From contig OY762721.1 in the NCBI GenBank assembly GCA_963666345.1, positions 1,216,001 to 1,280,000 of the forward strand: a DNA stretch of 64,000 bases, written 5' to 3'. Numbering within the stretch: the stretch's first letter is position 1; the number at the start of each line of letters is the position of its first letter. Source of the DNA: Desulfatiglandales bacterium. GTDB lineage: Bacteria; Desulfobacterota; DSM-4660; Desulfatiglandales; Desulfatiglandaceae. Below, one piece after another: positions 4,770 through 25,727 of this stretch. Position numbers and translations under genes: made by a program. Under the pieces are notes generated by a model. That model saw only the letters and a list, made by a program, of their open reading frames with translations, was not told the origin of the DNA and searched no databases.

Positions 4770-6002
4770 TCAGAACACGTATATTTGATGGCTGTCAGGA
4801 TTCTTTCCAAAGCAGGTGATATCATCCACCTTATTCAGTACGGGACCCTTGGTCAGGGCATAAAGTGTACGCTCCACCCCGATGCCTCCTCCAAAGGTCT
4901 CAGGGAAAGTAGGCATGCCCTGTTTGTCCTTTTTGGCGGTCATAAGCAGAAACGGCCCGTACCCGCCCAGTTCATCGATATTTCTGATATTGCCTTCATA
5001 TATTACGGGCCTGGAGGGAATAATATTGTTATCCAGCAAACGCTCAACAATCGCCTCATGGATCCATTCCCTCACCGCGCCTGAAAGAATCTCAATCGCG
5101 GGGGTCTGCTCCCCGGTATCCCGCATTATACTCTTGGCGCATATGTCATAGTTATAGATCATGTCAGAGGTAAGCTCAGACAGAGACACCTTTCCTTCAG
5201 GCCTCAGATAGGGGTAAACCAGGTCGTAGTTTTCCCTCAGCAGTCCGGTGATCCAGAAAAACTGATCCGCCAAATCCTCCCCGAGCCTTGTCTCATATCG
5301 TCTTCCATACTTCCTTTTTGCTTCATCAGCCCTGAATCTGGGAAACGGCCGGCTGGGGACCTCAAGGGCCACCCCAAGTGTTTTCAGATCCTCCTCGTTT
5401 TTCTCTACAAGCCGGGTAACGCTGTGGATGATGAGCCGCTCGAACAGATCCATCGCCCTTTCCATATCCTCGGCCAGGATCTTTTTGACCCTCTCCGGTT
5501 CCTTCAGATACATCTCGAGATCGATTCCCCTGTTTCTCCTCACCTCAAGGTCCATCTGGCTGAAATCTATAAGGTACCTGCCGCGCTGAGCCCGATCAGG
5601 GCTTTCCATTTCAAGCCTGATATTGGGGGAATCCACGAATATTCCCTTGATCCTCGGATTGTGACAGGCAAGAAATTTGGAATATATCATGCTGTGGGTC
5701 ATAACGTAGAGCTGCCCCTTGTAATGGATGCTCGGGACATATTCCACGTCATGGGCTAGAGGGTCCGTTATCTCACTTATCTGAACCCTCTCCATATTGA
5801 AGAGCCCTTCATCCGCAAGGAACTGGTGCATGGCATTTACAAAAGTGGTCCTTAGCGATAAGGCCGCGTAAAGGACATCACCCGTCCACTTGTTGTAGTA
5901 ATACTTGTCCAGATATTCCTCCAGGCTTGAACCTGCCTCTGTAAGGGCGGCCTGAAAACCGAACAGGCTCTGACCTATGGCGGTCATGGTCTCATCTTTC
6001 AT
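4770..6002 (-). CDS. Archaeal-type asparagine synthetase (AsnRS/AspRS catalytic-core paralog, no anticodon domain)
   Basis: ITDPL, THSMI, SPNIRLE, FSQMDLE, NYD, SGAVREW, GGGIGVER match the Pyrococcus AS-AR family from memory. Start placed at ATG 6002 (AGGAG upstream) instead of 6074. Confidence 0.8.
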   Translation of the reverse strand: MKDETMTAIGQSLFGFQAALTEAGSSLEEYLDKYYYNKWTGDVLYAALSLRTTFVNAMHQFLADEGLFNMERVQISEITDPLAHDVEYVPSIHYKGQLYVMTHSMIYSKFLACHNPRIKGIFVDSPNIRLEMESPDRAQRGRYLIDFSQMDLEVRRNRGIDLEMYLKEPERVKKILAEDMERAMDLFERLIIHSVTRLVEKNEEDLKTLGVALEVPSRPFPRFRADEAKRKYGRRYETRLGEDLADQFFWITGLLRENYDLVYPYLRPEGKVSLSELTSDMIYNYDICAKSIMRDTGEQTPAIEILSGAVREWIHEAIVERLLDNNIIPSRPVIYEGNIRNIDELGGYGPFLLMTAKKDKQGMPTFPETFGGGIGVERTLYALTKGPVLNKVDDITCFGKNPDSHQIYVF

Positions 6003-6110
6003 AATTGCCGAAATCTCCTCTGATAAGTTCACGCAACCGGCGCCAGCCGATGGCCCGGAAGCAATCATTCCCATCCGTCCGGAAATCAGATATTTCCGAA
6101 CGGATGTCTG

Positions 6111-8482: not shown

Positions 8483-10654
8483 ATGGATTGGAAAAACAGG
8501 GTATATTGCGGCTCCGTCGCTAAAGAGCATGTCGGCAGGCCGGTGCTTCTTATGGGTTGGATTGACGCCGTCCGTGACCATGGAAATCTGCTCTTTATCC
8601 ATCTCAGGGATATCAAAGGAATAGCGCAGGTGGTATTTGACCCCGGGAAAGGCCTTGAGATGTACGACAGGGCTGTAACGCTGAAGATAGAAGATGTCGT
8701 ACGGATAAGAGGCATGGTCTCGGAGCGCGCCGAGGAAACGGTCAACGCAAATCTTGATACAGGGCGCTTCGAGGTCTTTGCCGACGATCTTGAGATTCTT
8801 TCCCGTTCTTCCTCACTTCCGTTTCAACTGTCTGAAAAGGCGATACTCTTTGGCGATGAAACAGAGGCGAACCCGGAAAAAGTGGATGAGGAACTGAGGC
8901 TTAAATACAGGTACCTTGATCTGAGGAGGCCGTCGGTTCAGGCCATCTTCAAAAAGAGGTATGAGATAATAAAGAGCATACGCGATTTCTTCCATGAACT
9001 TGGTTTCCTTGAACTTGAAACACCTGTTCTGACCAAAAGCACACCTGAAGGCGCCAGGGATTATCTCGTGCCCAGCCGCTTGCACAGCGGTAAATTCTAT
9101 GCCCTTCCTCAGTCTCCCCAGCTCTTTAAACAACTGTTCATGGTAGGCGGAATGGACCGTTATTTTCAAATCGTCCGCTGTTTCAGGGACGAGGATCTCA
9201 GACCGAACCGCCAGCCGGAATTTACCCAGATGGACATGGAGGCCTCCTTCGTAGACGAAGAGTTCATCTACGAGACGGTGGAAAAACTCATATGCCGCAT
9301 ATTCAGCATCGGAGGGATTGAACTGGAAGCCCCCTTTCCAAGGATGAAATACAGGGATGCTATTGAAAGATACGGAACGGACAGGCCTGATATCAGATAC
9401 GAAATGGCCTTTGAAGAGGTGTCGGACATTTTGGCAGAGACTCGATATGCCATCTTCAGGAAGATTCTTGCCGCAGGCGGTTGCGTAAAAGGTTTCTGTA
9501 TAAAGGGCAAAGCGGATGTCATGAGCAAAAATCTTCTCCAGAACGAGTATGCCATGAGGATTGTTCCCGCCCTGGGAGGCGATGGAATGACCTGGATGAA
9601 GGTAACCGCCGGGGGTCTGGAATCAAATATCGTTCAGTTCTTCAGTCCGAATGAACAGGAAGATATAGTAAAAAGGTTTGCCGCTGAAAAAGGTGACGTG
9701 ATCATGATGATCGCGGACAGCTCAAGGGAACTTGTAAACAGCGTGCTATGCGACTTGAGGATAAATGTCGCGCACAGACTCGGCCTCATTCCCGACAATC
9801 TGTTTTGCCCCCTGTGGGTTACTGAATTTCCCCTTTTCGAACTTAAAGACGACGAGCTAAGTTCCCAGCATCATCCTTTTACCATGCCTGAAAGGGCGGA
9901 TTTTGACCCTGATGACAAAGAAGAAATGCTGGGCCTCAATTCCAGGGCCTATGATCTTGTAATGAACGGGGAAGAACTGGGTGGCGGAAGCATCCGTATT
10001 CACAGGATGGACATTCAGGAAAAGATCTTCAAGGCGCTCGGACTTTCAAAAAGCGAGATCGAAAATAAGTTCGGCTTTTTTCTCAAGGCACTCCGGTTCG
10101 GCGCACCACCGCACGCAGGACTTGCACTCGGCATGGACAGGGTGATCGCGATGATCCTGAACACCTCCTCTATCAGGGAGGTGATCGCCTTTCCCAAAAA
10201 CCGCAGCGCCTTCTGTCCTCTAACAGAGGCGCCTTCGAGCGTGAGCCGGGCCCAGTTGAAAGAACTGGACCTCGGCACTGCAAAGGGAATAAAACCTCTT
10301 ATAAAAAGATCAATGGAATCCGAAGTTCAGCAAATCACCGAAAGGCCGCATGAGGAATCGGAAGGGATCTCCATGAATGATGTAAGCCATGTTGCAAGAC
10401 TTGCAAGACTCAGGCTCACAGAAGAAGAGAAAAGGACCTATAAGAAAGACCTTGATGACATACTGGGATATGTTGAGACACTCAAGGAGCTCGACACATC
10501 CAAGGTGAGCCCTATGAGCCATGTCTTCAAATCCCGCAATGTCTGGCGGGATGACAGGGCCGGACGACACCCTGATGACAGCGAAGGCATCTTGAATAAT
10601 GCCCCTCAAAGGGAAGAAAACGGATTTAAGGTTCCGAAAATCCTGGAAGGCTGA
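8483..10654 (+). CDS. aspS: Aspartyl-tRNA synthetase fused to C-terminal GatC
   Basis: RDHG, STPEGARDYLVP, LPQSPQLFKQL, FRDEDLR, GAPPHAGLALGMDR; then a linker and GatC-like VSHVARLARL...ILGYVETLKELDT...NVWRDD...NAP...FKVPKI. Confidence 0.95.
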   Translation: MDWKNRVYCGSVAKEHVGRPVLLMGWIDAVRDHGNLLFIHLRDIKGIAQVVFDPGKGLEMYDRAVTLKIEDVVRIRGMVSERAEETVNANLDTGRFEVFADDLEILSRSSSLPFQLSEKAILFGDETEANPEKVDEELRLKYRYLDLRRPSVQAIFKKRYEIIKSIRDFFHELGFLELETPVLTKSTPEGARDYLVPSRLHSGKFYALPQSPQLFKQLFMVGGMDRYFQIVRCFRDEDLRPNRQPEFTQMDMEASFVDEEFIYETVEKLICRIFSIGGIELEAPFPRMKYRDAIERYGTDRPDIRYEMAFEEVSDILAETRYAIFRKILAAGGCVKGFCIKGKADVMSKNLLQNEYAMRIVPALGGDGMTWMKVTAGGLESNIVQFFSPNEQEDIVKRFAAEKGDVIMMIADSSRELVNSVLCDLRINVAHRLGLIPDNLFCPLWVTEFPLFELKDDELSSQHHPFTMPERADFDPDDKEEMLGLNSRAYDLVMNGEELGGGSIRIHRMDIQEKIFKALGLSKSEIENKFGFFLKALRFGAPPHAGLALGMDRVIAMILNTSSIREVIAFPKNRSAFCPLTEAPSSVSRAQLKELDLGTAKGIKPLIKRSMESEVQQITERPHEESEGISMNDVSHVARLARLRLTEEEKRTYKKDLDDILGYVETLKELDTSKVSPMSHVFKSRNVWRDDRAGRHPDDSEGILNNAPQREENGFKVPKILEG

Positions 10655-13729: not shown

Positions 13730-13778
13730 ACTTTAGTCACTTTAGTCACTCTAGTCACTTTAGTCACTTTAGTCACTT
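13730..13778. repeat. 9-bp tandem repeat (ACTTTAGTC) x5
   Basis: Five units, one with a T>C change, between gatB and the next gene. Confidence 0.9.
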
Positions 13779-13884: not shown

Positions 13885-15519
13885 ATGCGCATCATATACG
13901 CAACCGATATCCATCATGCATTGAGACAGCTGGAAGAGCTTTTTAAAAGGACCGATCCGGATCTCTATATCATCGCAGGAGATCTGGCATACCGTGCCTT
14001 TTACAGGTACAAAACCGCATGGCGCCTTATTGAGCTTGAGCAGATACTGAAAAGATACGGCAAGGATGGGCAGAGCCTCCTTGAGACGGCCTGCGAAATA
14101 TGCGTTACAAAAAATGAGGGTTCGCATTACGAAAGGGCCCTGGAATACCTTGACCTGGCACGTAAGGCAGAGGATTTTCTAAAAAAGACCTACCTGAAGA
14201 TCGAACGCATAATAGAGCACACCTCAAAGGCCCCCGTTTATGTGCTTCCGGGAAACTATGACATGGATCTTAACGAGACCCCCCTATCCGGACGCAACCT
14301 CCACCTTGATTTTATAGATTTCAAGGGCCTTCGCATAGCCGGTTACGGCGGCGCGAAGGTTCACACGCCCGGAATCCCGGAACACCTTCAGGTTCCCTTT
14401 ATAGAGAATAAAGGCCCGGAGGGGGTCATTTCCGAGGCATTTGATTTTTTTACCGGTTGCCGCCCCCAGATACTGGTCACCCATGAACCACCCTATGGGC
14501 ACCTTGATTTCCTGAAAGGGTACGGTAATGCCGGAAGCGAGGGAATCAGAAGATATATCGATGAAAAAAAGACGGTCGCCGTGCTTTCGGGACACTACCA
14601 CGAACAGTGGGGCGCCGTGAACGCGGGCGGAACCGTGATATTCAATCCTTCCAATTTCGGAAGGACATTGGAATTGACAAGGACACGGCGTGGAGGCAAT
14701 TTCCTCCAGCTGGAACTGAAAGGCGGGCATATCGAAGAGGCGCAGCTCCGCCGTCTGGAAAAGGAGGACATCTATCCTGTAGTACATTATGAGCCTTCAG
14801 GCAGCGGATTCAGATCCATAATACTGGATGAAAAGAGATACGCGGCTATGGGAGGCAAAATCCGGAAAACCATCCATATAAGGCCTATAAGGCAGCTCAG
14901 GAAGGTAAAATCCTTTTTCCTTCAATATGAAACCGAGCAAACGATCCAGTTGATAGACAAGCTTGAATCTATAATTGAGGAGCTGAGAGGAGAAGGCATG
15001 GAGATCGCCTTTGACCTGCTCGGATCCCTCAATTTCGGCATGGCCGGAAAAGGCTCCGACATAGACCTGGTCCTCTATCTGAGGGGAAGGGATTGTGTCC
15101 TGGATAGAGAGGATACATGTGCACTTCCCAGACCGGTAGAGGCGGTATTCAAAGGGCTCAATAAACGCGACATTGAAATCGATGTCTGCGACAGTCTTGA
15201 TCTCGACAGAATCGGCAGGGCAATTATTGAAGAAAACAAAGAAGACGGTCAGCTCCAAAGGTTTATTTTCTACAGGACCGTGTGCAGGCCGGTAAACCTC
15301 AAAACCATCAAGGCCGTTGAAAACCTGCTCCTTGGAAAAGAAAATTTTCGGCGGAAGGTTGAAGTCTCTCTCAAGGAACATATCGAGATCCTGGTCTCCT
15401 CGGTCAGGCATGTCAGATCCTTTGATAAGTACGGCACCAGACTTCGCGAAATGGGGGTAAAAGTATCTCCGGATGTTGAAGAGGCCATAAAGAACTATCT
15501 AAGGGGTCGGAAAGAATGA
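13885..15519 (+). CDS. Calcineurin-like metallophosphoesterase fused to Pol-beta-type nucleotidyltransferase
   Basis: N-terminal DIH, GDL, GNYD, THEPP, GHYHE; C-terminal LLGSLNFGMAGKGSDIDL plus a third Asp in IDVCD. Confidence 0.8.
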   Translation: MRIIYATDIHHALRQLEELFKRTDPDLYIIAGDLAYRAFYRYKTAWRLIELEQILKRYGKDGQSLLETACEICVTKNEGSHYERALEYLDLARKAEDFLKKTYLKIERIIEHTSKAPVYVLPGNYDMDLNETPLSGRNLHLDFIDFKGLRIAGYGGAKVHTPGIPEHLQVPFIENKGPEGVISEAFDFFTGCRPQILVTHEPPYGHLDFLKGYGNAGSEGIRRYIDEKKTVAVLSGHYHEQWGAVNAGGTVIFNPSNFGRTLELTRTRRGGNFLQLELKGGHIEEAQLRRLEKEDIYPVVHYEPSGSGFRSIILDEKRYAAMGGKIRKTIHIRPIRQLRKVKSFFLQYETEQTIQLIDKLESIIEELRGEGMEIAFDLLGSLNFGMAGKGSDIDLVLYLRGRDCVLDREDTCALPRPVEAVFKGLNKRDIEIDVCDSLDLDRIGRAIIEENKEDGQLQRFIFYRTVCRPVNLKTIKAVENLLLGKENFRRKVEVSLKEHIEILVSSVRHVRSFDKYGTRLREMGVKVSPDVEEAIKNYLRGRKE

Positions 15520-15776
15520 GGACCTGCCCCTGTACCTCGATCACCTGCAGAATCCACCATCTCATAGACATACAAACAGCAGCTTGAAACTCCATAGCCC
15601 CACGGCACCGGCAGGATGCCGGATGAAAGCTCAGCCGGAATACAGCGCGCGCGGAACAACAACCAAACGCCGCCCGTTACACCTTGATGGTGTTTCAGTC
15701 GGCTTTCTATAATATTGACAAGCCCTGTTTCACCCCCCTATACTTATTTTTTCACCCAGGCAACAGGAGACCGCGG

Positions 15777-17675
15777 ATGAATTACAGAAAGAACAGAGGG
15801 ATATCCTACTGGCCGGACAGATATGTGGCCAAACGCCGAAGCGCCACTGAGGCGATCGGCCTGATAAAGAGAGGCCAGAGGGTCTTTATCTCCTCTTTTT
15901 GCGGTGAACCGCAGGCCCTGGTAAAGGAACTCTCCTCGCAGTCGAACTGCTTTACGGATCTTGAGATCATCAGGGTTTTCAGTCTCGAAACGACCCCCCT
16001 GTCAATTATCGCCGACCGGACGTCCTGCCAAAGTTTCAACCTGAGGTCCTTCTATCTCGGTTCCGCCAAACCCAAAGCCATTTCACAGATGAAGCGCTTT
16101 ATAACGCCCATAAACCTTTCAGCCGTTCCTCGGCTTTTTAAGAGCAGGAGGGTGCCTATTCATGTCGCCCTCATCCAGGCATCCGAGCCGGATGATTTCG
16201 GATGGATGAGCCTGGGGGTCAGTGTGGATGTAACCTATTCGGCAGTCCACTCGGCGGACCTTGTTATCGTCCAGGTAAACAGAAAGATGCCTCGAGTTTT
16301 AGGCAGAAGCTTCATCCATGTAAACGAAGTGGATATCATCGTGGAACATGACGAAGAACTTATATCGATAGGCAGGGCTCCGGAATTCGAATCGGCCCAC
16401 AAGATTGCAGGACAGGTCGCAAAATTAATCGAAGACGGATCCACAATGCAGATAAGCCTGGGTTCCACGCCGCAGGCGCTGCTGCTTGCCCTTTCGGAAA
16501 AAAACGACCTGGGGATACACACACAATTCCTCACGGATACGATTATGAGCCTCTATTCCAAAGGAGTAATAACAAACAGGGTCAAAGGTATCAACGAGGG
16601 AAAGCTGGTAGCCAGCGGGGCCATAGGATCAAAAGATCTCTACGAATTTCTGGACGATAACCCGGCGATCGAATTTCATCCTTCCGATTATGTGAACGAC
16701 CCATCCGTTATCTCCAGACACAATAAGATGGTGGCCCTTAATGTTGTCATGGCAATGGATCTCACCGGCCAGGCGGCTGCCGACGCGCTTCCCTATAATC
16801 ACTACTCGGGCGTCAGTGGAATCATGGATTTTGTAAGGGGTTCAAGCCAGTCCCCGGGAGGCAAAAGCATCCTTATGCTCCCGTCCGCCACAATGGACGG
16901 TAAAAGCAGCAGAATCGTACCTAACCTAAGCGACATACCGGTGGTAATTCCCCGTGGTGATGTCCAGTATGTGGCGACCGAGTATGGAGTGGTGAACCTT
17001 TTCGGCAAAAGCCTCCAGGAACGGGCAATCGCTATGATTAGGATAGCCCACCCCGACTTCAGAGACGAACTCTTTAACAGGGCCAAAGAGTCAGGCCTTC
17101 TGGGTCCGGAACGCTCACTGTCGGATACACTCAAAAGCGTCTATCCCCAGAACATAGAAGAAACACGCATTATAGATTCGATAAAAGTGCTTTTCAGGCC
17201 ATCTTTTCCGACCGATGAGAGAAACATTCAGGAGCACTTCTATAACCTGGACCGCAGGGACATTGTAAAAAGGTTCTTCCATGAAAAAACCGCTTTTTTG
17301 AGAGATGATATCGCAGACGTATTCGAAATAGACTACGTTCACGATATGTCGATACTCGCTGTTATCGGCGAACCCGGATTTGAAAAGGTAATAGGCATCG
17401 GAGGTTATTTTCTCGATAGAAGCACAAACATGGTGGAGGCCTATTATTCCGTGGACAAGACATGGAGGCGCAAAGGCATATCTACCGTTATCCAGGACAA
17501 ACTTGTTCGGACATCCCGGGATAAAGGCATCAAGGGGGTCATTGTTTATACCACTCCCGACAACCAGGAGATGATAAGACTTTTCAACAAACTGCCCTAC
17601 AAAGTGGAGACATGCTTTGACCGGGAAAGAGGTTTTATGCTCAAGACCTTCTTCGACAAATCCCTGGAGGCTTAG
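15777..17675 (+). CDS. Acetyl-CoA hydrolase/transferase-like domain fused to GNAT acetyltransferase (paralog 1)
   Basis: SLGVSVD, IEDGSTMQI, VATEYGVVNLFGKSLQERA..IAHPDFR; C-terminal GNAT VDKTWRRKGIS. AGGAG upstream of ATG 15777. Confidence 0.9.
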   Translation: MNYRKNRGISYWPDRYVAKRRSATEAIGLIKRGQRVFISSFCGEPQALVKELSSQSNCFTDLEIIRVFSLETTPLSIIADRTSCQSFNLRSFYLGSAKPKAISQMKRFITPINLSAVPRLFKSRRVPIHVALIQASEPDDFGWMSLGVSVDVTYSAVHSADLVIVQVNRKMPRVLGRSFIHVNEVDIIVEHDEELISIGRAPEFESAHKIAGQVAKLIEDGSTMQISLGSTPQALLLALSEKNDLGIHTQFLTDTIMSLYSKGVITNRVKGINEGKLVASGAIGSKDLYEFLDDNPAIEFHPSDYVNDPSVISRHNKMVALNVVMAMDLTGQAAADALPYNHYSGVSGIMDFVRGSSQSPGGKSILMLPSATMDGKSSRIVPNLSDIPVVIPRGDVQYVATEYGVVNLFGKSLQERAIAMIRIAHPDFRDELFNRAKESGLLGPERSLSDTLKSVYPQNIEETRIIDSIKVLFRPSFPTDERNIQEHFYNLDRRDIVKRFFHEKTAFLRDDIADVFEIDYVHDMSILAVIGEPGFEKVIGIGGYFLDRSTNMVEAYYSVDKTWRRKGISTVIQDKLVRTSRDKGIKGVIVYTTPDNQEMIRLFNKLPYKVETCFDRERGFMLKTFFDKSLEA

Positions 17676-17750
17676 TAGAGCATTCCACCGTCTTAGCTGA
17701 TTTATTGAATTTTGTGAGACCTTACTATGAAATTAAAGGAGGATTATAAC

Positions 17751-19718
17751 ATGCCGGAAACTCCTGCTTTCTATGACGCGCACCTTGATGAGTATAGAAG
17801 GATCGCCTACGTAAAAGGGCAAGATGAATATGAAAGGCTGTACAAAGAATCCATCGAAGATCCTGAAACTTTCTGGGCCGCAGAGGCGAAAAAGTATCTC
17901 AGTTGGGAGAAGAATTGGGACATGGTTCTTGAATACGATCCTGATGAAGCCAGAATCGAATGGTTCAAAGGAGGAGCTTTGAATGCCTCCTATAACTGCC
18001 TTGATCGTCACCTGGATAAATTAAGGGACAAAATCGCATATTACTGGGAAGGAGACGACCCTGCCGACAGAAAGATCATCACCTATGGCGACTTATACAA
18101 GCAGGTCAACAAGATGGCCGCCCTCCTTAAATCAAGGGGCATAGGTAAAGGGGACAGGGTGGTCATGTACATGCCCATGATAACGGAGCTGCCGGTGGCC
18201 ATGCTTGCCTGCTCCAGGATCGGAGCGATCCACAGCGTCGTATTTGCCGGGTTCAGCGCCGAGGCCCTTACCAACCGCATCAGGAACTGCGGGGCAAAGA
18301 TGCTCATCACAGTGGACGGGGGCTTTAGGGCAGGGAAAACGATTCCTCTGAAAGTAACCGTGGACGAGGCCCTCCGCAACTGCCCTGATATTGAAACGGT
18401 TATCCTTGTGGACAGGGCGGGACTTAAGCCCGAGCTTAAAAAAGACCTTGAGATCTGGTGGCACGAAGCTATTGAAGATCCACAACTGCCCGATTATGTG
18501 GAACCTGAGCCGATGGATGCGGAGGACCCGCTTTTCATACTATACACCAGCGGAAGCACCGGGACCCCAAAGGGAGTGGTTCACACCCATGGCGGATATC
18601 TTCTTTACGCCGCCATGACGACACGGATCGTATTTGATCTCAAGGATGACGAGGTCTTCTGGTGCACCGCTGATATAGGATGGGTTACCGGGCACAGCTA
18701 CGCGGTCTACGGACCCCTTACGAACGGACTCACAGGAGTAATTTTTGAGGGAGTTCCGACATACCCGGGCTTTGACCGTTACTGGGACATAGTGTCCAGG
18801 TACAAGGTCGCCAAATTCTACACCGCCCCCACGGTTATACGCTCACTGGCAAAGGAAGGAAGCGAACATGTCAAAAAGCATGACATCTCATCACTCAAAC
18901 TGCTGGGCTCGGTGGGAGAACCTATTAATCCGGAGGCCTGGAGATGGTACTATCACCATGTGGGCAGGGACCGGTGCCCGATTATGGATACATGGTGGCA
19001 GACTGAAACCGGGGGCCACATGTTGACCCCCCTTCCCGGGGTATCGCCCATAAAACCGGGCTCCTGCTCCATGCCTTTTTTCGGCGTGGACCCGGTTATT
19101 CTGGATGATACGGGTCAGGAAACCAGGTTCCCGGACCAGGAAGGGGTTCTGTGCATAAGAAAACCGTGGCCCGGCATAGCACGCACGCTCTACGGTGATC
19201 ATGAGCGGTTCATTGATACCTATTTCAGCCAGGTACCGGGCATGTATTTTTCAGGTGACGGTGCGAAAAAAGATGAGGACGGCTACTTCTGGATAATCGG
19301 AAGAATAGATGACGTGATAAACGTATCGGGTCACCGCCTCGGAACCGCCGAGGTTGAATCCGCCCTGGTACTGCACAACCTTGTGGCCGAGGCGGCCGTG
19401 GTGGGGTTTCCGCATCAGGTAAAAGGCCAGGGAATTTACGCCTTTGTAACGCTCAATTCGGGCGTAACCGAATCGGACGAATTGAAAAAGGAGCTGGTCG
19501 CCCTGGTGCGCAGGGAAATCGGTCCGATTGCAACGATTGATATAATTCAGTGGGCCGACTCTCTTCCCAAGACGAGAAGCGGAAAGATAATGAGACGAAT
19601 CCTTCAAAAGATCGCCGCAGGGAAGGTGGATGAGCTGGGAGACGTATCTACGATTGCCGACCCCTCTGTGGTGGAAACCTTGATGCGGGAGCACCTCGCT
19701 TTAATAGGACAAACCTGA
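17751..19718 (+). CDS. acs: Acetyl-CoA synthetase (AMP-forming)
   Basis: YTSGSTGTPKG, WCTADIGWVTGH, DTWWQTETG, PKTRSGKIMRR; AAGGAGG RBS. Confidence 0.95.
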   Translation: MPETPAFYDAHLDEYRRIAYVKGQDEYERLYKESIEDPETFWAAEAKKYLSWEKNWDMVLEYDPDEARIEWFKGGALNASYNCLDRHLDKLRDKIAYYWEGDDPADRKIITYGDLYKQVNKMAALLKSRGIGKGDRVVMYMPMITELPVAMLACSRIGAIHSVVFAGFSAEALTNRIRNCGAKMLITVDGGFRAGKTIPLKVTVDEALRNCPDIETVILVDRAGLKPELKKDLEIWWHEAIEDPQLPDYVEPEPMDAEDPLFILYTSGSTGTPKGVVHTHGGYLLYAAMTTRIVFDLKDDEVFWCTADIGWVTGHSYAVYGPLTNGLTGVIFEGVPTYPGFDRYWDIVSRYKVAKFYTAPTVIRSLAKEGSEHVKKHDISSLKLLGSVGEPINPEAWRWYYHHVGRDRCPIMDTWWQTETGGHMLTPLPGVSPIKPGSCSMPFFGVDPVILDDTGQETRFPDQEGVLCIRKPWPGIARTLYGDHERFIDTYFSQVPGMYFSGDGAKKDEDGYFWIIGRIDDVINVSGHRLGTAEVESALVLHNLVAEAAVVGFPHQVKGQGIYAFVTLNSGVTESDELKKELVALVRREIGPIATIDIIQWADSLPKTRSGKIMRRILQKIAAGKVDELGDVSTIADPSVVETLMREHLALIGQT

Positions 19719-19737
19719 GACGCGAGTCAAACCAACG

Positions 19738-19760
19738 CCCCGTATTCATAACGGGGTTTT
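19738..19760 (+). terminator. Putative intrinsic terminator after acs
   Basis: CCCCGT-N7-ACGGGG followed by TTTT. Confidence 0.45.
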
Positions 19761-19790
19761 AATCCACGAATTCTTTCAGCCTGACGGACC

Positions 19791-20267
19791 ATGATCTATA
19801 CCGATAAAAAGGGGTTACCTTTTGAGGTGAAGGGTTTCAGTCCTGAGGATCTTAACCGGCTCATGGAAATGTACAGCTGTTTTTCTCCCAAAGGCTCTTT
19901 TCAGGGGATGCCGCCCTGCGATGGGGACGCCTGTTGCCGGTGGGTTGAGGCCCTGATAGAGAGAGGAGAGAACCTTATAGCCGTTCAGGATGAAAAGGTG
20001 ACAGGCCACGCCGTGCTTCTGCCAGACGGCAGACTGGAAGACGCGGAATTCCTGATATTTGTGAGCAGGGCCAAAAGGGGCAGAGGCATGGGCAGCCGGC
20101 TCACCGGCGGGGCGCTTAAGCTGGCAAGGAAACTTGAGATAAAAAAGATCTGGCTCACCGTGGATGCCTACAACTTCAGGGCGACAGGGCTTTACAGGAA
20201 GTATGATTTCAAGTTTTCAGAACAATGCGGATCCATGACTGAAAGACTCATGACACTCATACTTTAA
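19791..20267 (+). CDS. GNAT family N-acetyltransferase
   Basis: AEFLIFV..KRGRGMGS, N..A..LY.K..F. Confidence 0.88.
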   Translation: MIYTDKKGLPFEVKGFSPEDLNRLMEMYSCFSPKGSFQGMPPCDGDACCRWVEALIERGENLIAVQDEKVTGHAVLLPDGRLEDAEFLIFVSRAKRGRGMGSRLTGGALKLARKLEIKKIWLTVDAYNFRATGLYRKYDFKFSEQCGSMTERLMTLIL

Positions 20268-20315
20268 GACAGGGGACCTTCTCCCGCCGGCTAAACGGGA
20301 AATGAATCAAAGACG

Positions 20316-21353
20316 ATGAAGACGGAAAACAGAATAGGAGTCATAAGGGATGCCAGGTATCTGGAACATATGCCGGGGCATATGCATCCCGAACACCCTA
20401 ACCGCATTAAGTCCATTTACAGGATGCTCGATACCGACTTCAGCGACAGGGTCGTTAACATAACCGCTGATGCCGCGACCCTCGAGGATCTTGAGATGGT
20501 TCATACTCCCTCTTACATAAAAAAGGTAATGAAGACCGCGGAGCAAAATTTCACCAGTCTGGCACCCGATACCCCTGCAAGCAGGGGGACCTATCTGGCC
20601 GCATGGCTTGCAGTAGGGGGCTGTCTCAAGGGTCTTGACAAACTGCTTAAAGGAGAATTTCCCTACTGCTTCGCCCTTGTGCGACCGCCCGGGCACCATG
20701 CCCTGCCTGACCGGGCCGGAGGCTTCTGCATCTTCAACAATATCGGCGTTACGGCCCTTCATGCGTTGAAACGCCTGAAAAGAATTCTTATAATCGACTG
20801 GGACATCCATCATGGAAACGGCATTAATCAGCTGTTTTACAAGGATAACCGGGTGCTCTATTTCTCCACCCATGACATGCTTCTATATCCATACACCGGG
20901 GACTGGGATAAAACCGGAACCGGGGATGGAGCGGGATACAGCATCAACATACCCATACCCAGGGATCTTACGGACGCCGATTTCCTGTACCTGTACAGCA
21001 GTATCCTGGGGCCTGTCTATTCCCGCTTCAGGCCTCAACTCGTCCTTGTTGCAGCAGGATTTGATTCAATCAGAAACGACCCTATCGGCAGGTCCCGACT
21101 CACACCCGGGGTCTTCAGAGATCTAACCGGGGTTTTAATGGGCATGGGTGAAGGCGTGGGCTCCCCCCCTGTCCTTTTTGTGCTCGAAGGCGGCTATGAT
21201 CCAAGGATACTTTCAAGCGCGGTAAAGGAGGTCCTTCTTGCCCTTGACGGGGGGGCGGACAACGGAAGCGATATTCATGAAACAGGCAGGGCAAGGCAAC
21301 TGATCGAAAGGACGGAGGCCATCCACTCCCCCCATGGGGTGTGGATATCTTGA
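20316..21353 (+). CDS. Zn-dependent deacetylase (HDAC/AcuC family)
   Basis: HPEHPNR, RPPGHHA, GFCIFNN, DWDIHHGNG, AGFD, LEGGY. Confidence 0.93.
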   Translation: MKTENRIGVIRDARYLEHMPGHMHPEHPNRIKSIYRMLDTDFSDRVVNITADAATLEDLEMVHTPSYIKKVMKTAEQNFTSLAPDTPASRGTYLAAWLAVGGCLKGLDKLLKGEFPYCFALVRPPGHHALPDRAGGFCIFNNIGVTALHALKRLKRILIIDWDIHHGNGINQLFYKDNRVLYFSTHDMLLYPYTGDWDKTGTGDGAGYSINIPIPRDLTDADFLYLYSSILGPVYSRFRPQLVLVAAGFDSIRNDPIGRSRLTPGVFRDLTGVLMGMGEGVGSPPVLFVLEGGYDPRILSSAVKEVLLALDGGADNGSDIHETGRARQLIERTEAIHSPHGVWIS

Positions 21354-21393
21354 GACCGAACCGATTTTATTATGCATGTTTTGCGGATGGGCT

Positions 21394-23115
21394 ATGATAA
21401 AGGCAAGGATAAAGGCTGAAAATTCAAAGGCCAATATAGGTTCATACAAAGAGACATACCGGTCATTTTCATGGGATGATATCTACAAGGAATTCACCTG
21501 GCATGAGACCGGACTTGTCAATATCGCCTACGAGGCAGTGGACCGCTGGGCCGAAGATCCTGAAAAGGCGGACAAGGAGGCACTTGTCTTTGAAAAGGGA
21601 TCCGAGAGGGTGGCATTCACCTATTCGGAGCTTAAGGAACAATCGGCCGTATGGGCAGGTCTGCTTTGCGATAAGGGGTTCAAGCAAGGTGACAGGCTGC
21701 TCATCTTTCTGGTGCCCTGCCCTGAAATCTATCTGGCGATTCTCGCCTGCGCCAGGCTGGGTGTAATATTTTGTCCCCTTTATTCAAGCATGGGCTTTGA
21801 CGAACTGGAGGACCGGATATCCAATGCCGACCCGCTCGGCATACTTACTCAACCGGATCTGGCTGAAAACCTCCCGACAGAGGTCATGGGTAACGTCAGA
21901 CATACCTTATACACGCAGGGACCTCTTCCGGGGCTGTTTAACGGGGAGGACCTGGTCTCAGACGGCCTGCGGCAGGTAAGAGGCGGAGGTGATATCAAAT
22001 GGCTTTCTCTTGACTCCCCGCTCTATCTCATCCACACCTCGGGATCCACAGGACCGCCCAAGGGAGTCCTTCACTGTCACGGTGATATGTCAAGTCATCT
22101 TATCTCCGCACGCTATGCCCTTGACGTCACTCAGGATACCGTGCTATGGACCGACGGCAACCCTGCCTGGATAACAGGGACCGTCTACAGCACCTTCGCC
22201 CCCTGGCTCTGCTGCGCGACCTCGGTGGTTCAGGGAGCACCTTTTACGGCATCCAACTGGTACAGGACACTTGAAACCAGCAGGGTAACCGTATGGTACA
22301 CGACCCCGATGACGGTCGGAAAATTGATGGAAGCGGGTGAAGACCTCCCAACCAGGTATGACTGCTCCAATCTGAAACATATAGCCACCGTAGGCGAGGC
22401 CCTGGTGCCGGAGCTTTTCTACTGGTTGAAAAAGAATCTCAAACACTCGCCCCACGACACCTGGTGGATGAGTGAATCCGGAAGCATCTGCATCTCCAAC
22501 TTTCCCTCAATGGACATCAAACCAGGATCCATGGGCAGGCCCCTGCCGGGGATAGAAGCGGACATAGTAGATGAGGAAGGCAACAGGCTTCCCCTCCTGA
22601 CCATGGGCCAGCTGGCACTAAAGACCCCCTGGCCTTCGCTTATGAAGACGATATGGCGGGAGGACCTGAGGTACCAGGCCTATTTCACAAAAACAGGCTG
22701 GTTTCTGACCGGAGACATGGCACTCAAGGATGAACAGGGCTATTTCTACCACCAGGGAAGGATGGACGACCTGATAAAGGTTGGAGACAAGCTTCTAGGT
22801 CCCTATGAGATCGAGCACATCCTCTGCCAGCACCCTTCGGTTCTGGAGGCGGCCGTTATATCCAAAAGCGCCGAACAATCGTCTCCCCACCTGAAGGCGT
22901 TTATAACCCTTCAAAGAGGAAACGTGCCTTCGAGCAGAATGAGCCAGGAAATAAAGGCCTTTGTAAAGGCAAATCTATCACCTGACACACCCCTTAAAGA
23001 GGTCGAGTTTTGTGAAAGGCTTCCCAAGACCAACGCGGGAAAACTTCTGCGAAGGGTACTCAGGGCCAGAGAGCTCGGCCTGCCCGGTGGCGATCCCACT
23101 CTTATGAAAGGCTGA
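21394..23115 (+). CDS. Second acetate/short-chain acyl-CoA ligase (AMP-forming)
   Basis: HTSGSTGPPKG, DTWWMSESG, TGD, GRMDD, PKTNAGKLLRR. Confidence 0.88.
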   Translation: MIKARIKAENSKANIGSYKETYRSFSWDDIYKEFTWHETGLVNIAYEAVDRWAEDPEKADKEALVFEKGSERVAFTYSELKEQSAVWAGLLCDKGFKQGDRLLIFLVPCPEIYLAILACARLGVIFCPLYSSMGFDELEDRISNADPLGILTQPDLAENLPTEVMGNVRHTLYTQGPLPGLFNGEDLVSDGLRQVRGGGDIKWLSLDSPLYLIHTSGSTGPPKGVLHCHGDMSSHLISARYALDVTQDTVLWTDGNPAWITGTVYSTFAPWLCCATSVVQGAPFTASNWYRTLETSRVTVWYTTPMTVGKLMEAGEDLPTRYDCSNLKHIATVGEALVPELFYWLKKNLKHSPHDTWWMSESGSICISNFPSMDIKPGSMGRPLPGIEADIVDEEGNRLPLLTMGQLALKTPWPSLMKTIWREDLRYQAYFTKTGWFLTGDMALKDEQGYFYHQGRMDDLIKVGDKLLGPYEIEHILCQHPSVLEAAVISKSAEQSSPHLKAFITLQRGNVPSSRMSQEIKAFVKANLSPDTPLKEVEFCERLPKTNAGKLLRRVLRARELGLPGGDPTLMKG

Positions 23116-23230
23116 AAGGATCCTCCGTTTTTCAGACCCTTCAATCCCTCCTGCCCCAGCAAGTCTTTGCCTTTTTTTTATTAATCAGGTAGTCCCCATC
23201 CGGAAATGGATCATTCCCGGATGTTGCTTT

Positions 23231-23310
23231 CAGCAGTCAGCTGTCAGTAAGTAGCCAGCAAGTTGATATTCCAAATGTTTTACTGACAGCTGAGAGCTGA
23301 TTGCTGATAG
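23231..23310. repeat. Heptamer-based inverted repeat hairpin
   Basis: TCAGCTGTCAGTAA (23237-23250) and TTACTGACAGCTGA (23280-23293) are a perfect inverted repeat, embedded in CAGC/GCTGA-type 7-mer iterations. Confidence 0.75.
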
Positions 23311-23428
23311 CGTGAGTCCATAAATCTTGATTTATGGATGAACACCAGGTAAAATTTTTCAGTCGTGGAAATACCTTCTGAAAGGCATTTTATTCAAAAA
23401 AACCGGTATCCGGAAAAGGAGGAGTAAA

Positions 23429-23713
23429 ATGGCCAAAATCCTGATAAGAAGGAAAATCCCTCCGGACGCAGAGGGCGCTGTTATGGATCTCCTGAACGGA
23501 ATGAGATCCCTTGCGGTCGTGCAGCCGGGATACGTGCACGGTGAGACCCTTAAAAGGGTCGACCAGGCCGGAGAGATCCTGGTGATAAGCACCTGGCGCT
23601 CCATAAACGACTGGGATGATTGGATCAACAACCCCCAAAGGCTTGAAATACAGGAAAAGGTGGATTTTCTTCTCGGAGAAAAAACCGAATACGAAATCTA
23701 TGATTATCGCTGA
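23429..23713 (+). CDS. Antibiotic biosynthesis monooxygenase (ABM) family protein
   Basis: QPGYVHGETL...VISTWRS..DW..W; AGGAGGAG RBS. Confidence 0.8.
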   Translation: MAKILIRRKIPPDAEGAVMDLLNGMRSLAVVQPGYVHGETLKRVDQAGEILVISTWRSINDWDDWINNPQRLEIQEKVDFLLGEKTEYEIYDYR

Positions 23714-23849
23714 ATCCGATTTGGAGCGTTATTGCAAAAGCCGTTTTCATGCCGGGTCATCCGACTGAAGAGGTTCGACGCAGATCTGTTCCAGGGACTC
23801 GTTTGCTTGACGAAAGCAGGTATCTTTTCATAAGGCGGAGGAATCTGAT

Positions 23850-25727
23850 TTGGGCTTGAAGCACAAGCTGGTAACCCCTGACAAAATCATGACTAAAATC
23901 AAACCGGGGATGAGTATCTTTCTCAGCACAGGCGTAGCTGAACCCCGCACCCTGCTCAAAAGTCTCAAGGCATCCGAGTCACGAAACCTGCAGGATCTTG
24001 AATTGATTCAGCTTGTAAGCCTTGGAAGCGCACTTTCCTTTGAGGAACGCTATTCCAATAAATTCCGGTTAAAGACATTCTTTTCCGGCTGGATCGCCAG
24101 TGAAGCCATACTTGCCGGAAAGGTGGATTTCATTCCTGCCAGGTTTTCAAAGATCCCTCAGCTCATAGAGTCAGGGTCAATAAGGATCGACGTCGCCTTC
24201 ATTCAGATCACCCCTCCGAATGAAAACGGTTATTCAAGCCTGGGACTTGCCGTGGATGTGGCAAGAAAGGCAATGGAAAAGGCATCTATCGTGGTAGGGG
24301 AGATAAATAAGGATGTCCCCATGACTTTGGGGGACACCTTTGTCCACATGGATGAGTTTCACTATCTGGTCGAGGGCGAGGAACCGCCTCTATATTTTCC
24401 CCGATTTCATGTGGATGAGACATTTGACAGGATTGGTGCCAATGTCGCATCCCTGATCGAGGACGGAAGCTGCATCGCCTTTTCCGTGGGGATGCTCTTT
24501 GAGGCCCTTGCCCGGCACCTTGCAAGAAAAAAGGACCTCGGCATTCACACCCCGCTTTTCACAGACCCATTGATGGACCTGATGAAAAGCGGCGTCGTAA
24601 CGAACAGGAAAAAGGGGTCATTCAGGGGCAAAAGCGTGGCAGCCTACGCAGTAGGCACAAAAGAACTCATGAGATGGCTCCACAACAACCCTCTGGTGGA
24701 ATTTCAGGGCATTGACATCGTAGCCGATCCAAAGCGGATAGGCTTAAACGACCGTTTCATCATGGTCCTTCCGGCAAGAAAACTGGACCTCACAGGGGGC
24801 ATCGCCCTGCACAGCGGAAAGGGCAATGTGGTTGCCGGGCCTAGTGAGGCCCAGGAATTCTTCACAGGTGTAAACTTTTCCAAAAAGGGGCATGTAATAT
24901 TTGCGCTTCCCAGCCGAAACCTGAACGGCGAATCCAACATACTCCTTTCTGTCGAGGACTACCCAAATCAGCTCTACATACCCGAATCCCTTGACCTCGT
25001 GGTAACCGAATACGGAACCGCCTCTCTGACCGGGCGGACAATGAGAGAAAGGGCGCTTGCCCTCATAGATATCGCCCACCCCGATGACAGAGAAAAACTT
25101 GTGCGCCTTGCCAAGGAAAATAATATCGTCTTCCGCCATCAGAGCTACCTTGCCGATTCAGGCCGCATGTACCCTGCTGAGCTTTCCTGCACAAAGACAT
25201 TCAAAGACGGCCTCACAATAAGGTTCAGGGCCATAAAACCTTCCGATGTCGAGGAAATGCGAAGACTCTTTTACAGGTTTTCAGACAAGGCGGTATATTA
25301 CAGATATTTTTCACCCATCAAGACGATGCCCCATGCCAAGATGCAGGAGTATGTAAACATCGATTACAATCAAAGCATGTCCATGGTGGGCCTTGCAGGT
25401 GAGATGGATGAGGAACGAATAATTGCGGAGGCAAGATACGTTCGCTTCACAGACAGGCCGAAGGCCGATGTGGCATTCGTAGTAGATGAGCAGTATCAGG
25501 GAAAAGGCATAGCCTCCTTTATGTTCGATATGCTTATGGGGATTTCACGGGAACGTGGAATCAAAGGTTTTGAAGCGGATGTACTGGCGAACAACACGGC
25601 AATGATAAAGGTATTCGAAAAATCTCCTTACCCCGTAAAATCTGTTTTGGACAGTGGGATATATGAGATATCAATCCCTTTTTCAGACGAGGTATCTGAT
25701 AGCACCGGACTCCTGGTAAGGGAGTGA
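23850..25727 (+). CDS. Acetyl-CoA hydrolase/transferase-like domain fused to GNAT acetyltransferase (paralog 2)
   Basis: SLGLAVD, IEDGSC, VVTEYG...RERALALIDIAHPDDR; Pat-like GNAT YYRYFS...ADVAFVVDEQYQGKGIA. Confidence 0.9.
   Translation: MGLKHKLVTPDKIMTKIKPGMSIFLSTGVAEPRTLLKSLKASESRNLQDLELIQLVSLGSALSFEERYSNKFRLKTFFSGWIASEAILAGKVDFIPARFSKIPQLIESGSIRIDVAFIQITPPNENGYSSLGLAVDVARKAMEKASIVVGEINKDVPMTLGDTFVHMDEFHYLVEGEEPPLYFPRFHVDETFDRIGANVASLIEDGSCIAFSVGMLFEALARHLARKKDLGIHTPLFTDPLMDLMKSGVVTNRKKGSFRGKSVAAYAVGTKELMRWLHNNPLVEFQGIDIVADPKRIGLNDRFIMVLPARKLDLTGGIALHSGKGNVVAGPSEAQEFFTGVNFSKKGHVIFALPSRNLNGESNILLSVEDYPNQLYIPESLDLVVTEYGTASLTGRTMRERALALIDIAHPDDREKLVRLAKENNIVFRHQSYLADSGRMYPAELSCTKTFKDGLTIRFRAIKPSDVEEMRRLFYRFSDKAVYYRYFSPIKTMPHAKMQEYVNIDYNQSMSMVGLAGEMDEERIIAEARYVRFTDRPKADVAFVVDEQYQGKGIASFMFDMLMGISRERGIKGFEADVLANNTAMIKVFEKSPYPVKSVLDSGIYEISIPFSDEVSDSTGLLVRE

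What the first reader, a model, noticed from the sequence alone, without database searches (positions are those of the whole stretch)
13885..15519. Metallophosphoesterase-nucleotidyltransferase fusion: possible writer/eraser enzyme
Seen: all five calcineurin-like metal motifs in the N-terminal part and an intact hGS-x9-DxD...D Pol-beta triad in the C-terminal part. Established: bifunctional writer/erasers such as GlnD (NTase+HD) and GlnE reversibly nucleotidylate proteins, and Pol-beta NTases also make nucleotide signals that phosphoesterases degrade. Inference: a synthesis/hydrolysis pair with a domain combination I do not recognise as characterised, placed between nitrogen assimilation/tRNA amidation genes and the Acs acylation cluster. 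Its target is unknown.
Basis: partly seen in the sequence, partly recalled or inferred. Interest (0 to 1): 0.7.

Follow-up and report, generated by a model that had tools for sequence, protein, structure and literature searches.

The report
Coupled nucleotide add-and-remove enzyme
This gene encodes a real, unstudied two-part enzyme, found in several groups of anaerobic bacteria and spirochaetes, that most likely attaches a nucleotide to something and takes it off again, but its target is unknown and is probably not encoded by the neighbouring genes.

Summary
Confirmed. 13885-15519 encodes a 544-aa protein: a metallophosphoesterase (MPE, all seven metal ligands) plus a Pol-beta nucleotidyltransferase (GS-x10-DxD...D436); both sites are invariant in 115 of 115 close homologs and both folds are supported by models. 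The halves form one unit: of 60 loci found with the NTase alone, 23 are fused, 29 have the cognate MPE directly upstream, 4 lack it, 4 are cut. The MPE has Tyr at the usual GNH histidine in 187 of 187 two-active-site proteins; in one lineage that lost the NTase it changed to His twice and paired with a GADEF-type GGDEF gene (13 of 13 loci). MPE-dead/NTase-live forms also exist. Best reading: reversible nucleotidylation switch, protein target 45%, small nucleotide signal 27%. No paper found in 10 searches; this scan noted what appears to be the same family before on other genomes (e1-6603635, e1-7178843, e1-6656921). No activity is shown.

The parts
13885..15519 (+). 544-aa MPE-NTase fusion gene, single copy in the genome
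   Evidence: 392 homologs at E<=0.001 among 8000 candidates
13885..14850 (+). Calcineurin-like metallophosphoesterase domain (about residues 1-322), Icc/COG2129-like, ligands D8 H10 D33 N124 H200 H237 H239, Tyr125 at the GNH histidine position
   Evidence: PF00149; fold matches aq_1956 2yvt Z 21.9, rmsd 2.9, 227 aligned; TT1561 1uf3 Z 20.9; MPPED2 18.6; GpdQ 18.4; Rv0805 17.4; conservation
14002..14223 (+). Helical insert (residues 40-113, three helices) after motif II of the MPE; candidate cap or substrate-binding element (inference)
   Evidence: secondary structure of model H42-56, H65-74, H80-113; F39, Y88, A95, Y103 conserved in at least 90% of 110 family MPEs
14857..15516 (+). Pol-beta-type nucleotidyltransferase domain (residues 325-544): G380 S381, D392 D394, D436, plus conserved R459 F460 Y463 R464 R468 N471 and S512 K515 Y516 R519 in a helical extension
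   Evidence: model pLDDT 93.4; DrrA 6yx5 Z 8.0 (rmsd 4.9, 137 aligned), MntA 7bxo 7.3, AadA 6.7, GlnE 6.3
15715..15744 (+). Sigma-70-like promoter match (11 of 12) between this gene and the CoA-transferase/acs cluster; would let the acs cluster be transcribed on its own (consensus match only)
   Evidence: 4 sites found in the region against 2.5 +/- 1.7 in shuffles, so the count itself is not significant

Best explanation
A self-contained reversible nucleotidylation switch that works like GlnD but with a calcineurin-like eraser. Step 1 (fold and residues shown, activity inferred): the NTase binds an NTP with two metals at D392/D394/D436 and transfers NMP to a hydroxyl acceptor, most likely a Tyr/Ser/Thr of a protein encoded elsewhere. 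Step 2 (ligands shown, activity inferred): the dimetal MPE hydrolyses that phosphodiester, releasing NMP. Tyr125 in place of the phosphate-binding His tunes it to a non-cyclic diester, namely the product of its own NTase (inferred from covariation and from published mutagenesis of other MPEs). Step 3 (inferred): fusion or translational coupling keeps the two opposed activities at 1:1 and under joint control. The target, the nucleotide and the signal are not identified.
For: Coupling: 23 fused + 29 adjacent of 60 loci from an NTase-only query, 23 of the 29 within -7 to +1 nt. Closest NTase folds are protein AMPylases DrrA, MntA and both GlnE domains. AMPylation is a phosphodiester to Ser/Thr/Tyr (PMC12409994, passages). 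In CthPnkp the equivalent His264 is needed for Mn-dependent monoesterase activity and is a determinant of cyclic phosphodiesterase activity but is dispensable for plain diesterase activity (PMC2190708, passages). Tyr is present in 187 of 187 distinct full-length proteins with both sites intact (two regex mis-hits corrected), while His appears only where the NTase is dead or lost, in two separate branches (one His clade rejected, p-AU 4e-7). Slow evolution, dN/dS 0.05-0.26 in 18 unsaturated of 23 pairs, native GC 0.49 vs 0.48, near-core status in three families (33 of 43, 15 of 18, 6 of 7 genomes) fit a cellular regulator.
Against: No activity or target is shown and no candidate target gene travels with the module. 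The fold ranking does not separate protein AMPylases from small-molecule adenylyltransferases (AadA 6.7, ANT(9) 6.4, within about 1 Z of MntA and GlnE). No ACT or other sensor domain as in GlnD was detected. Half-dead forms in both directions (8 MPE-dead/NTase-live rows; 4 NTase-dead fusions) and re-pairing with a GGDEF-type gene fit a nucleotide messenger at least as well. Stand-alone, more distant MPEs also carry Tyr or Trp here (39 of 52 intact ones) and their gene context could not be read, so Tyr is not unique to NTase partnership. The split form is one clade, so the 29 coupled pairs are not independent events.
Confidence: 0.45

Rival explanations
1. A synthetase/hydrolase pair for a small nucleotide signal (a di- or oligonucleotide or alarmone-like product), analogous in logic to RelA/SpoT proteins: the NTase joins NMP to another nucleotide or metabolite, the MPE destroys the product.
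For: Synthetase-only and hydrolase-only derivatives both exist as clades, as in RelA/SpoT homologs (recalled). In family f68 the NTase-less or NTase-dead paralog is followed directly by a GAF-GGDEF gene with a GADEF motif in 13 of 13 loci and has His in 12 of 13, against 8-14 GGDEF domains per genome. The 4 NTase-alone loci lie beside EAL, cyclase or PilZ genes. No target gene is needed nearby.
Against: CD-NTase CdnC (Z 4.6), HalB (4.8) and SpoT (3.9) rank below the AMPylases; no SMODS Pfam match in 15 members; one weak PADLOC cyclase match (E 0.03) in 1 of 9 proteins. The GGDEF pairing is one ancestral event and concerns a derived paralog; the orphan-NTase neighbours are one clade with three different upstream genes. 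No conserved receptor gene.
Confidence: 0.27
2. An RNA end-healing enzyme: the MPE removes a 3'-phosphate or 2',3'-cyclic phosphate and the NTase adds NMP to the freed 3'-OH (RlaP- or CCA-like).
For: Pol-beta NTases such as RlaP add NMP to damaged RNA (PMC12776372, abstract); calcineurin-like domains heal RNA ends in Pnkp (PMC2190708). Many conserved Arg/Lys in the NTase; weak sequence likeness to Cid1/MTPAP palm (E 0.14 and Pfam E 8e-5).
Against: The His that determines cyclic-phosphate and Mn-monoesterase activity is Tyr in all two-site members. No PF10127 (RlaP) match in 15 members. Among the neighbour clusters that were annotated none is an RNA ligase, RtcB or Hen1 shared across lineages. 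PAP, CCA and TUTase folds score Z 4.9 or less.
Confidence: 0.1
3. A type VII-like toxin-antitoxin or defence module: the NTase inactivates the partner MPE by nucleotidylating it (Tyr125 or Tyr103), as MntA does to HepT, or the MPE undoes a toxic NTase.
For: MntA is the second-best fold match (Z 7.3); two-gene coupled architecture; Tyr125 is tied to a live NTase; patchy presence in the host family (17 of 105).
Against: No match in phages, plasmids or viral contigs; stable lineage-level synteny beside housekeeping genes; slow evolution; NTase stays intact in 8 rows where the MPE and its Tyr are lost, and the MPE stays intact in 13 f68 loci without a live fused NTase, 9 of those genomes showing no intact or near-intact second copy. 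PADLOC match covers only the generic MPE motif stretch 194-265.
Confidence: 0.08
4. Two steps of one metabolic route on a small metabolite (activate with NMP, then hydrolyse a different bond), or a local regulator of the neighbouring Acs/GatCAB/GlnA/PII proteins.
For: Small-molecule adenylyltransferases tie in the fold ranking. acs with deacetylase lies within 8 kb in this window, L034 and L093; amtB-glnK-glnD is divergent in L037 and L093; AMP-binding enzymes are within 8 kb in 9 of 87 loci; a glnK-glnD pair sits about 17 kb upstream here.
Against: These neighbours are confined to the host family clade; none recurs in the other Desulfobacterota families or spirochaetes. GlnD is present in 16 of the 17 module-positive genomes and in 90 of 105 overall, so the module does not replace it. 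A promoter-like site separates the gene from the acs cluster.
Confidence: 0.1

Closest known systems
GlnD (PII uridylyltransferase/uridylyl-removing enzyme; TIGR01693)
   Same: Pol-beta NTase and a metal-dependent phosphodiesterase in one chain, opposed activities (GlnD mechanism recalled).
   Different: Hydrolase is calcineurin-like, not HD; order is hydrolase then NTase; 544 aa vs about 850; no ACT domains; true GlnD co-exists (two copies here).
DrrA/SidM AMPylation domain, GlnE, MntA (protein adenylyltransferases)
   Same: Best fold matches of the C-domain, Z 8.0, 6.3, 7.3, same GS..DxD..D triad.
   Different: 10-14% identity; the last 50 residues (SFxKYxxR helices) are not covered by these matches; their erasers are SidD (PPM-like), a second NTase domain, or none; no HEPN partner.
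aq_1956 (2yvt) and TT1561 (1uf3), Icc/COG2129-like metallophosphoesterases; MPPED2, Rv0805, GpdQ
   Same: Fold, Z 21.9 to 17.4, and metal ligands.
   Different: 16-22% identity; Tyr at the GNH position; family-specific NPSNFG motif; partnered with an NTase.
RelA/SpoT homologs (recalled)
   Same: N-terminal hydrolase plus Pol-beta-fold synthetase; synthetase-only and hydrolase-only derivatives.
   Different: HD rather than calcineurin-like hydrolase; SpoT matches only at Z 3.9; RSH transfer pyrophosphate, not NMP.
RlaP and Pnkp RNA repair enzymes
   Same: Pol-beta NTase and calcineurin-like phosphoesterase both occur in RNA repair.
   Different: No PF10127 match, no ligase partner, His-to-Tyr in the MPE.

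Membership tests
Calcineurin-like metallophosphoesterase superfamily | Five motifs with seven metal ligands | tested here: met
   D8 H10 D33 N124 H200 H237 H239 invariant in 115 of 115; PF00149 above cut-off
Calcineurin-like metallophosphoesterase superfamily | Four-layer MPE fold | tested here: met
   Z 21.9, rmsd 2.9, 227 aligned to 2yvt
Cyclic-nucleotide phosphodiesterases of the Rv0805/CpdA type | His after GN in motif III | tested here: not met
   Tyr125 in 187 of 187 two-site proteins; role of His from PMC2190708
Pol-beta nucleotidyltransferase superfamily | hG[GS]x9-13DxD motif and third acid on the next strand | tested here: met
   G380 S381 x10 D392 D394 and D436; strands E393-399 and E432-439 in the model
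Pol-beta nucleotidyltransferase superfamily | NTase fold | tested here: met
   First 14 of 50 rows are Pol-beta NTases, Z 8.0-4.9; moderate scores, no Foldseek E<=0.001
Pol-beta nucleotidyltransferase superfamily | NMP transfer from NTP | not testable with these tools
   needs assay
GlnD | HD hydrolase and C-terminal ACT domains; TIGR01693 match | tested here: not met
   No HD or ACT in Pfam, no TIGR01693 in NCBIfam for this protein; the model finds two other genes
GlnD | PII as substrate | not testable with these tools
   glnK adjacent in 2 of 87 loci only
GlnE | Two NTase domains, PF03710 | tested here: not met
   One NTase domain; PF03710 has no match over cut-off in the genome and none at this gene
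MNT-HEPN type VII toxin-antitoxin | Adjacent HEPN toxin gene | tested here: not met
   The coupled partner is an MPE in 52 of 56 evaluable loci; no other conserved neighbour
CD-NTase/CBASS | CD-NTase fold and SMODS profile | tested here: inconclusive
   CdnC Z 4.6; no SMODS Pfam match in 15 members; PADLOC cyclase E 0.03 in 1 of 9
CD-NTase/CBASS | Effector (Cap) gene in the operon | tested here: not met
   No conserved third gene
RlaP | PF10127 profile and RNA ligase neighbour | tested here: not met
   No PF10127 among matches at E<=1 for 15 members; no shared ligase neighbour among annotated clusters
RelA/SpoT homologs | HD hydrolase plus RelA_SpoT synthetase profile | tested here: not met
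   Neither profile matches; SpoT Z 3.9

The most novel reading that the evidence does not exclude
The module makes and breaks a nucleotide second messenger not yet described, as a RelA/SpoT-like switch built from a calcineurin-like hydrolase and a new Pol-beta synthetase, with synthetase-only and hydrolase-only offshoots, one of which was rewired into c-di-GMP signalling by a convergent Tyr-to-His change.
Probability: 0.25. Interest if true: 0.85.

Novelty: new variant of a known kind. Interest (0 to 1): 0.57.

Why it matters
Few erasers of protein nucleotidylation are known, and the one review searched here (PMC12409994, passages) does not contain the words calcineurin or metallophosph-. A 544-residue, confidently modelled protein with two separately mutable active sites makes the question directly testable: kill the hydrolase and see what gets labelled. 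Either outcome, a new protein modification switch or a new nucleotide signal in syntrophic and sulfate-reducing bacteria and spirochaetes, would be new biology. The natural half-dead variants and the Tyr/His switch supply built-in controls. It stays below top interest because the logic is that of GlnD or RelA/SpoT, nothing is shown biochemically, and the scan has met this family before.

Tried and rejected
Sequence search of PDB with the whole protein: only 2 chance ribosomal hits; NTase profile best E 0.14; split-MPE profile matched only MPPED2. Foldseek of the C-domain against PDB and viral models: nothing at E<=0.001. Complex prediction of a split MPE-NTase pair: no answer, score 0.00, neither for nor against binding. 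No RNA holder listed for the locus, so expression and operon structure were not tested. No match in plasmids, phages or viral contigs. The single genome-collection scan used one protein and gave 1 locus, so whole spirochaete genomes could not be examined; whether MPE-dead fusions share a genome with a live paralog, and where the MPE lies in the 4 NTase-alone loci, is open (could not reach those records). GlnD replacement rejected. GlnE replacement at the canonical site unlikely: the only GS is alpha type and shows Phe where, from recall, beta-type GS has the adenylylated Tyr; an attempt to fetch E. coli glnA for a direct alignment found no DNA match, so this point is not tested. Lipoprotein, Rnk/GreA-like and other lineage neighbours (c22, c28, c105, c5, c11, c14) do not match each other and, apart from one weak c5 hit, are absent from this genome. 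A Cys/His metal site in the NTase was considered: C412 47/60 and C467 48/60 but C404 20/60 and C435 25/60, so not family-wide. The large NTase tree is the quick version and holds 7 truncated fusions labelled split and 1 labelled MPE-dead. Literature: 10 searches found no description; two comparative-genomics papers recalled as relevant (nucleotide-centric conflict systems, 2015; RNA damage and repair, 2016) were not held and might mention the pairing; no supplements were read.

Full report
OBSERVATION. The ORF at 13885-15519 (+) gives a 544-aa protein, single copy in the 4.16-Mb genome, GC 0.49 against 0.48 for the genome. It lies between gatB (ends 13662) and a CoA-transferase-GNAT/acs/GNAT/deacetylase/acs-like cluster, with aspS-gatC, gatA, glnA and an archaeal-type asparagine synthetase-like gene upstream. 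A homolog search gave 392 proteins among 8000 candidates; the 120 listed are 40-60% identical apart from self, and sources call them Icc-related phosphoesterase, some with 'predicted nucleotidyltransferase'. In an alignment of the query with 114 of them (self and 5 partial hits left out), all seven MPE metal ligands and G380, S381, D392, D394, D436 are invariant.

FOLD. AlphaFold2 models the whole chain at pLDDT 91.8, pTM 0.89. Residues 1 to about 300 match aq_1956 (Z 21.9), TT1561 (20.9), MPPED2 (18.6), GpdQ (18.4), Rv0805 (17.4), with a three-helix insert at 40-113. Residues 325-544 alone (pLDDT 93.4) return Pol-beta NTases in the first 14 of 50 rows: DrrA Z 8.0, MntA 6.4, GlnE 6.3 (both domains), aminoglycoside adenylyltransferases 6.2; a second look gave MntA 7.3, AadA 6.7, poly(A) polymerase 4.9, HalB 4.8, CdnC 4.6. 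These scores are moderate and Foldseek gave no E<=0.001, so the superfamily is supported by motif plus consistent ranking, and no named family is matched. The last 50 residues, with S512, K515, Y516, R519 conserved in 58-59 of 60, are not covered by those NTase matches.

DISTRIBUTION. Present in 17 of 105 genomes of the host family; in an even draw of 401 genomes of the phylum, 20 have a two-domain match, 1 an MPE-only match and 18 only weak generic MPE matches. It is near-core in three other families: 33 of 43, 15 of 18 and 6 of 7 genomes. Source names point to Thermodesulfobacteriota, Syntrophales, Deltaproteobacteria, Spirochaetota and Leptospiraceae. Not found in the phage, plasmid or viral collections searched. 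dN/dS is 0.048-0.261 for the MPE and 0.050-0.183 for the NTase in 18 unsaturated of 23 pairs.

THE TWO HALVES ARE ONE UNIT. A profile search showed stand-alone NTases of about 225 aa and stand-alone MPEs. A metagenome scan with an NTase-only alignment returned 60 loci: 23 fused, 29 with the cognate MPE directly upstream (23 of these within -7 to +1 nt), 4 with no MPE upstream, 4 cut by the contig end. The split forms are one clade and some loci are near-duplicates, so this is one fission followed by long retention, not 29 events. A complex prediction for a split pair gave no answer.

NO THIRD GENE. Clustering of neighbours shows only lineage-level synteny. Among 87 de-duplicated loci (48 with at least 2 kb on both sides; flanks up to 8 kb): glnA 1, gatA 2, gatB 3, deacetylase 4, CoA-transferase-GNAT 4, glnK/amtB/glnD 2, any AMP-binding enzyme 9, with this window and its near-copy L097 counted in each where present. 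The acs-deacetylase, gat and glnK neighbours belong to the host-family clade. The genome has no GlnE over cut-off, two GlnD and one alpha-type GS; GlnD is in 16 of 17 module-positive family genomes. An 11/12 sigma-70 match sits between this gene and the acs cluster (consensus only).

HALF-DEAD FORMS AND THE TYR/HIS SWITCH. Eight fused rows have lost MPE ligands but keep the NTase triad (named Spirochaetota where named), and four keep the MPE but have lost the triad (named Syntrophales where named); each set is essentially one clade. Residue 125 is Tyr in 187 of 187 distinct full-length proteins with both sites intact (two apparent exceptions were pattern mis-hits) and in 20 of 20 coupled split MPEs. 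In family f68 a second paralog lacks the NTase (11 loci) or has it dead (2 loci); 12 of these 13 read GNHD, and all 13 are followed directly by a GAF-GGDEF gene with GADEF at the active site; two papers call GADEF degenerate (PMC4823724 and PMC12805831, passages). Four genomes carry both paralogs, one of them with an in-frame stop in the fusion. On a 22-row careful tree His needs two changes and a single His clade is rejected (p-AU 4e-7; the group was defined after I had seen the quick tree, and the change needs only one base). In CthPnkp the equivalent His264 is required for Mn-dependent monoesterase activity and is a determinant of cyclic phosphodiesterase activity, while plain diesterase activity does not need it (PMC2190708, passages). 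Inference: with a live NTase the MPE is held as a non-cyclic diesterase fitted to the NTase product; once freed it drifts toward a cyclic-nucleotide phosphodiesterase. Against over-reading: more distant stand-alone MPEs (one named Woesearchaeota) also have Tyr or Trp (39 of 52 intact), with unknown context.

MECHANISM. Shown: two intact, selected active sites, their folds, their coupling, the absence of a conserved neighbour. Inferred: NMP transfer to a hydroxyl and hydrolysis of the resulting phosphodiester by the partner domain (about 80% for a make-and-break pair of some sort). Acceptor: protein 0.45 (closest folds are protein AMPylases; GlnD-like architecture), small nucleotide 0.27 (RelA/SpoT-like half-dead forms, recalled analogy; GGDEF, EAL, cyclase, PilZ neighbours of orphan halves, each a single lineage), RNA end 0.10, self-modification or toxin-antitoxin 0.08, metabolic or local target 0.10.

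KNOWN VERSUS NEW. It works like GlnD or a RelA/SpoT protein but is a member of neither, nor of GlnE, MNT-HEPN, CBASS or RlaP (membership table). Ten literature searches gave no description of the pair. Read as passages: PMC2190708, PMC12409994, 10.64898/2026.10.19.760177, PMC4823724, PMC12805831, PMC7824862, PMC9503650; as abstract and outline: PMC12776372; the rest as listings only; no supplements. Two recalled comparative-genomics papers were not held. The scan's own notes describe what appears to be the same family on three other genomes and reach a similar reading (a look-up by sequence found nothing, so identity of family rests on their descriptions); they were seen after my reading was formed and are not independent support. 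Added here: the locus counts, the half-dead clades, the convergent Tyr-to-His change and the GADEF re-pairing.

VERDICT. Real, conserved, uncharacterised two-enzyme module; new variant of a known kind; interest 0.57.

Noticed in passing
L120, L121, L164-L174 (family f68): NTase-less or NTase-dead MPE paralog, mostly GNHD, directly followed by a GAF-GGDEF gene with GADEF motif (RxxD-like site in the genus g140 copies) in 13 of 13 loci; glycosyltransferase and GH57 genes follow in L148. A candidate c-di-GMP-linked phosphodiesterase operon.
   Followed up: partly
P0133, P0134, P0138, P0140, P0146, P0149, P0150, P0287: Fusions with a decayed MPE active site and an intact NTase triad (Spirochaetota where named); the pseudo-MPE may act as a sensor. 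Paralogs in the same genomes could not be checked.
   Followed up: partly
L048, L049, L050, L052: NTase without upstream MPE; upstream gene is EAL, adenylate/guanylate cyclase or DUF3108, with a convergent PilZ gene in L048, L050, L052.
   Followed up: partly
window 8483-10654: AspRS fused to GatC (NF009460 937 bits, below its cut-off of 1379), ahead of gatA and gatB.
   Followed up: no
window 4770-6074 (-): 434-aa class II aaRS-like protein resembling archaeal-type asparagine synthetase A (NF005054, below cut-off), beside glnA, in a genome that also has the GatCAB route.
   Followed up: no
window 13730-13778: Tandem repeat of a 9-bp unit, 5.4 copies, 95% matches, in the gatB to MPE-NTase spacer.
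   Followed up: no
window 15684-25727: Acylation cluster: two CoA-transferase-GNAT fusions, acs, a second acs-like ligase, a small GNAT and a deacetylase; partly kept in L034, L035, L093.
   Followed up: partly
G000:C1:1140207-1142690 and 1209953-1212469: Two GlnD genes; the second follows a glnK gene just upstream of the window. Two copies are common in the family.
   Followed up: no
L039 (G018), L163 (G512), L175 (G518), L146 (G283): Broken or altered copies of the module: a frameshift, an in-frame TAG, a fragment, and an in-frame insertion of about 37 residues in the NTase.
   Followed up: no
A4, A6 columns C77 and C89; window residues C404, C412, C435, C467: Cys/His-rich loop after the DxD strand in split NTases and conserved Cys in close fusions; possible metal site, not family-wide.
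   Followed up: partly
P0161-P0270: A wider set of stand-alone MPEs with the same helical insert and GNY/GNW motif (one named Woesearchaeota); gene context not obtainable.
   Followed up: no
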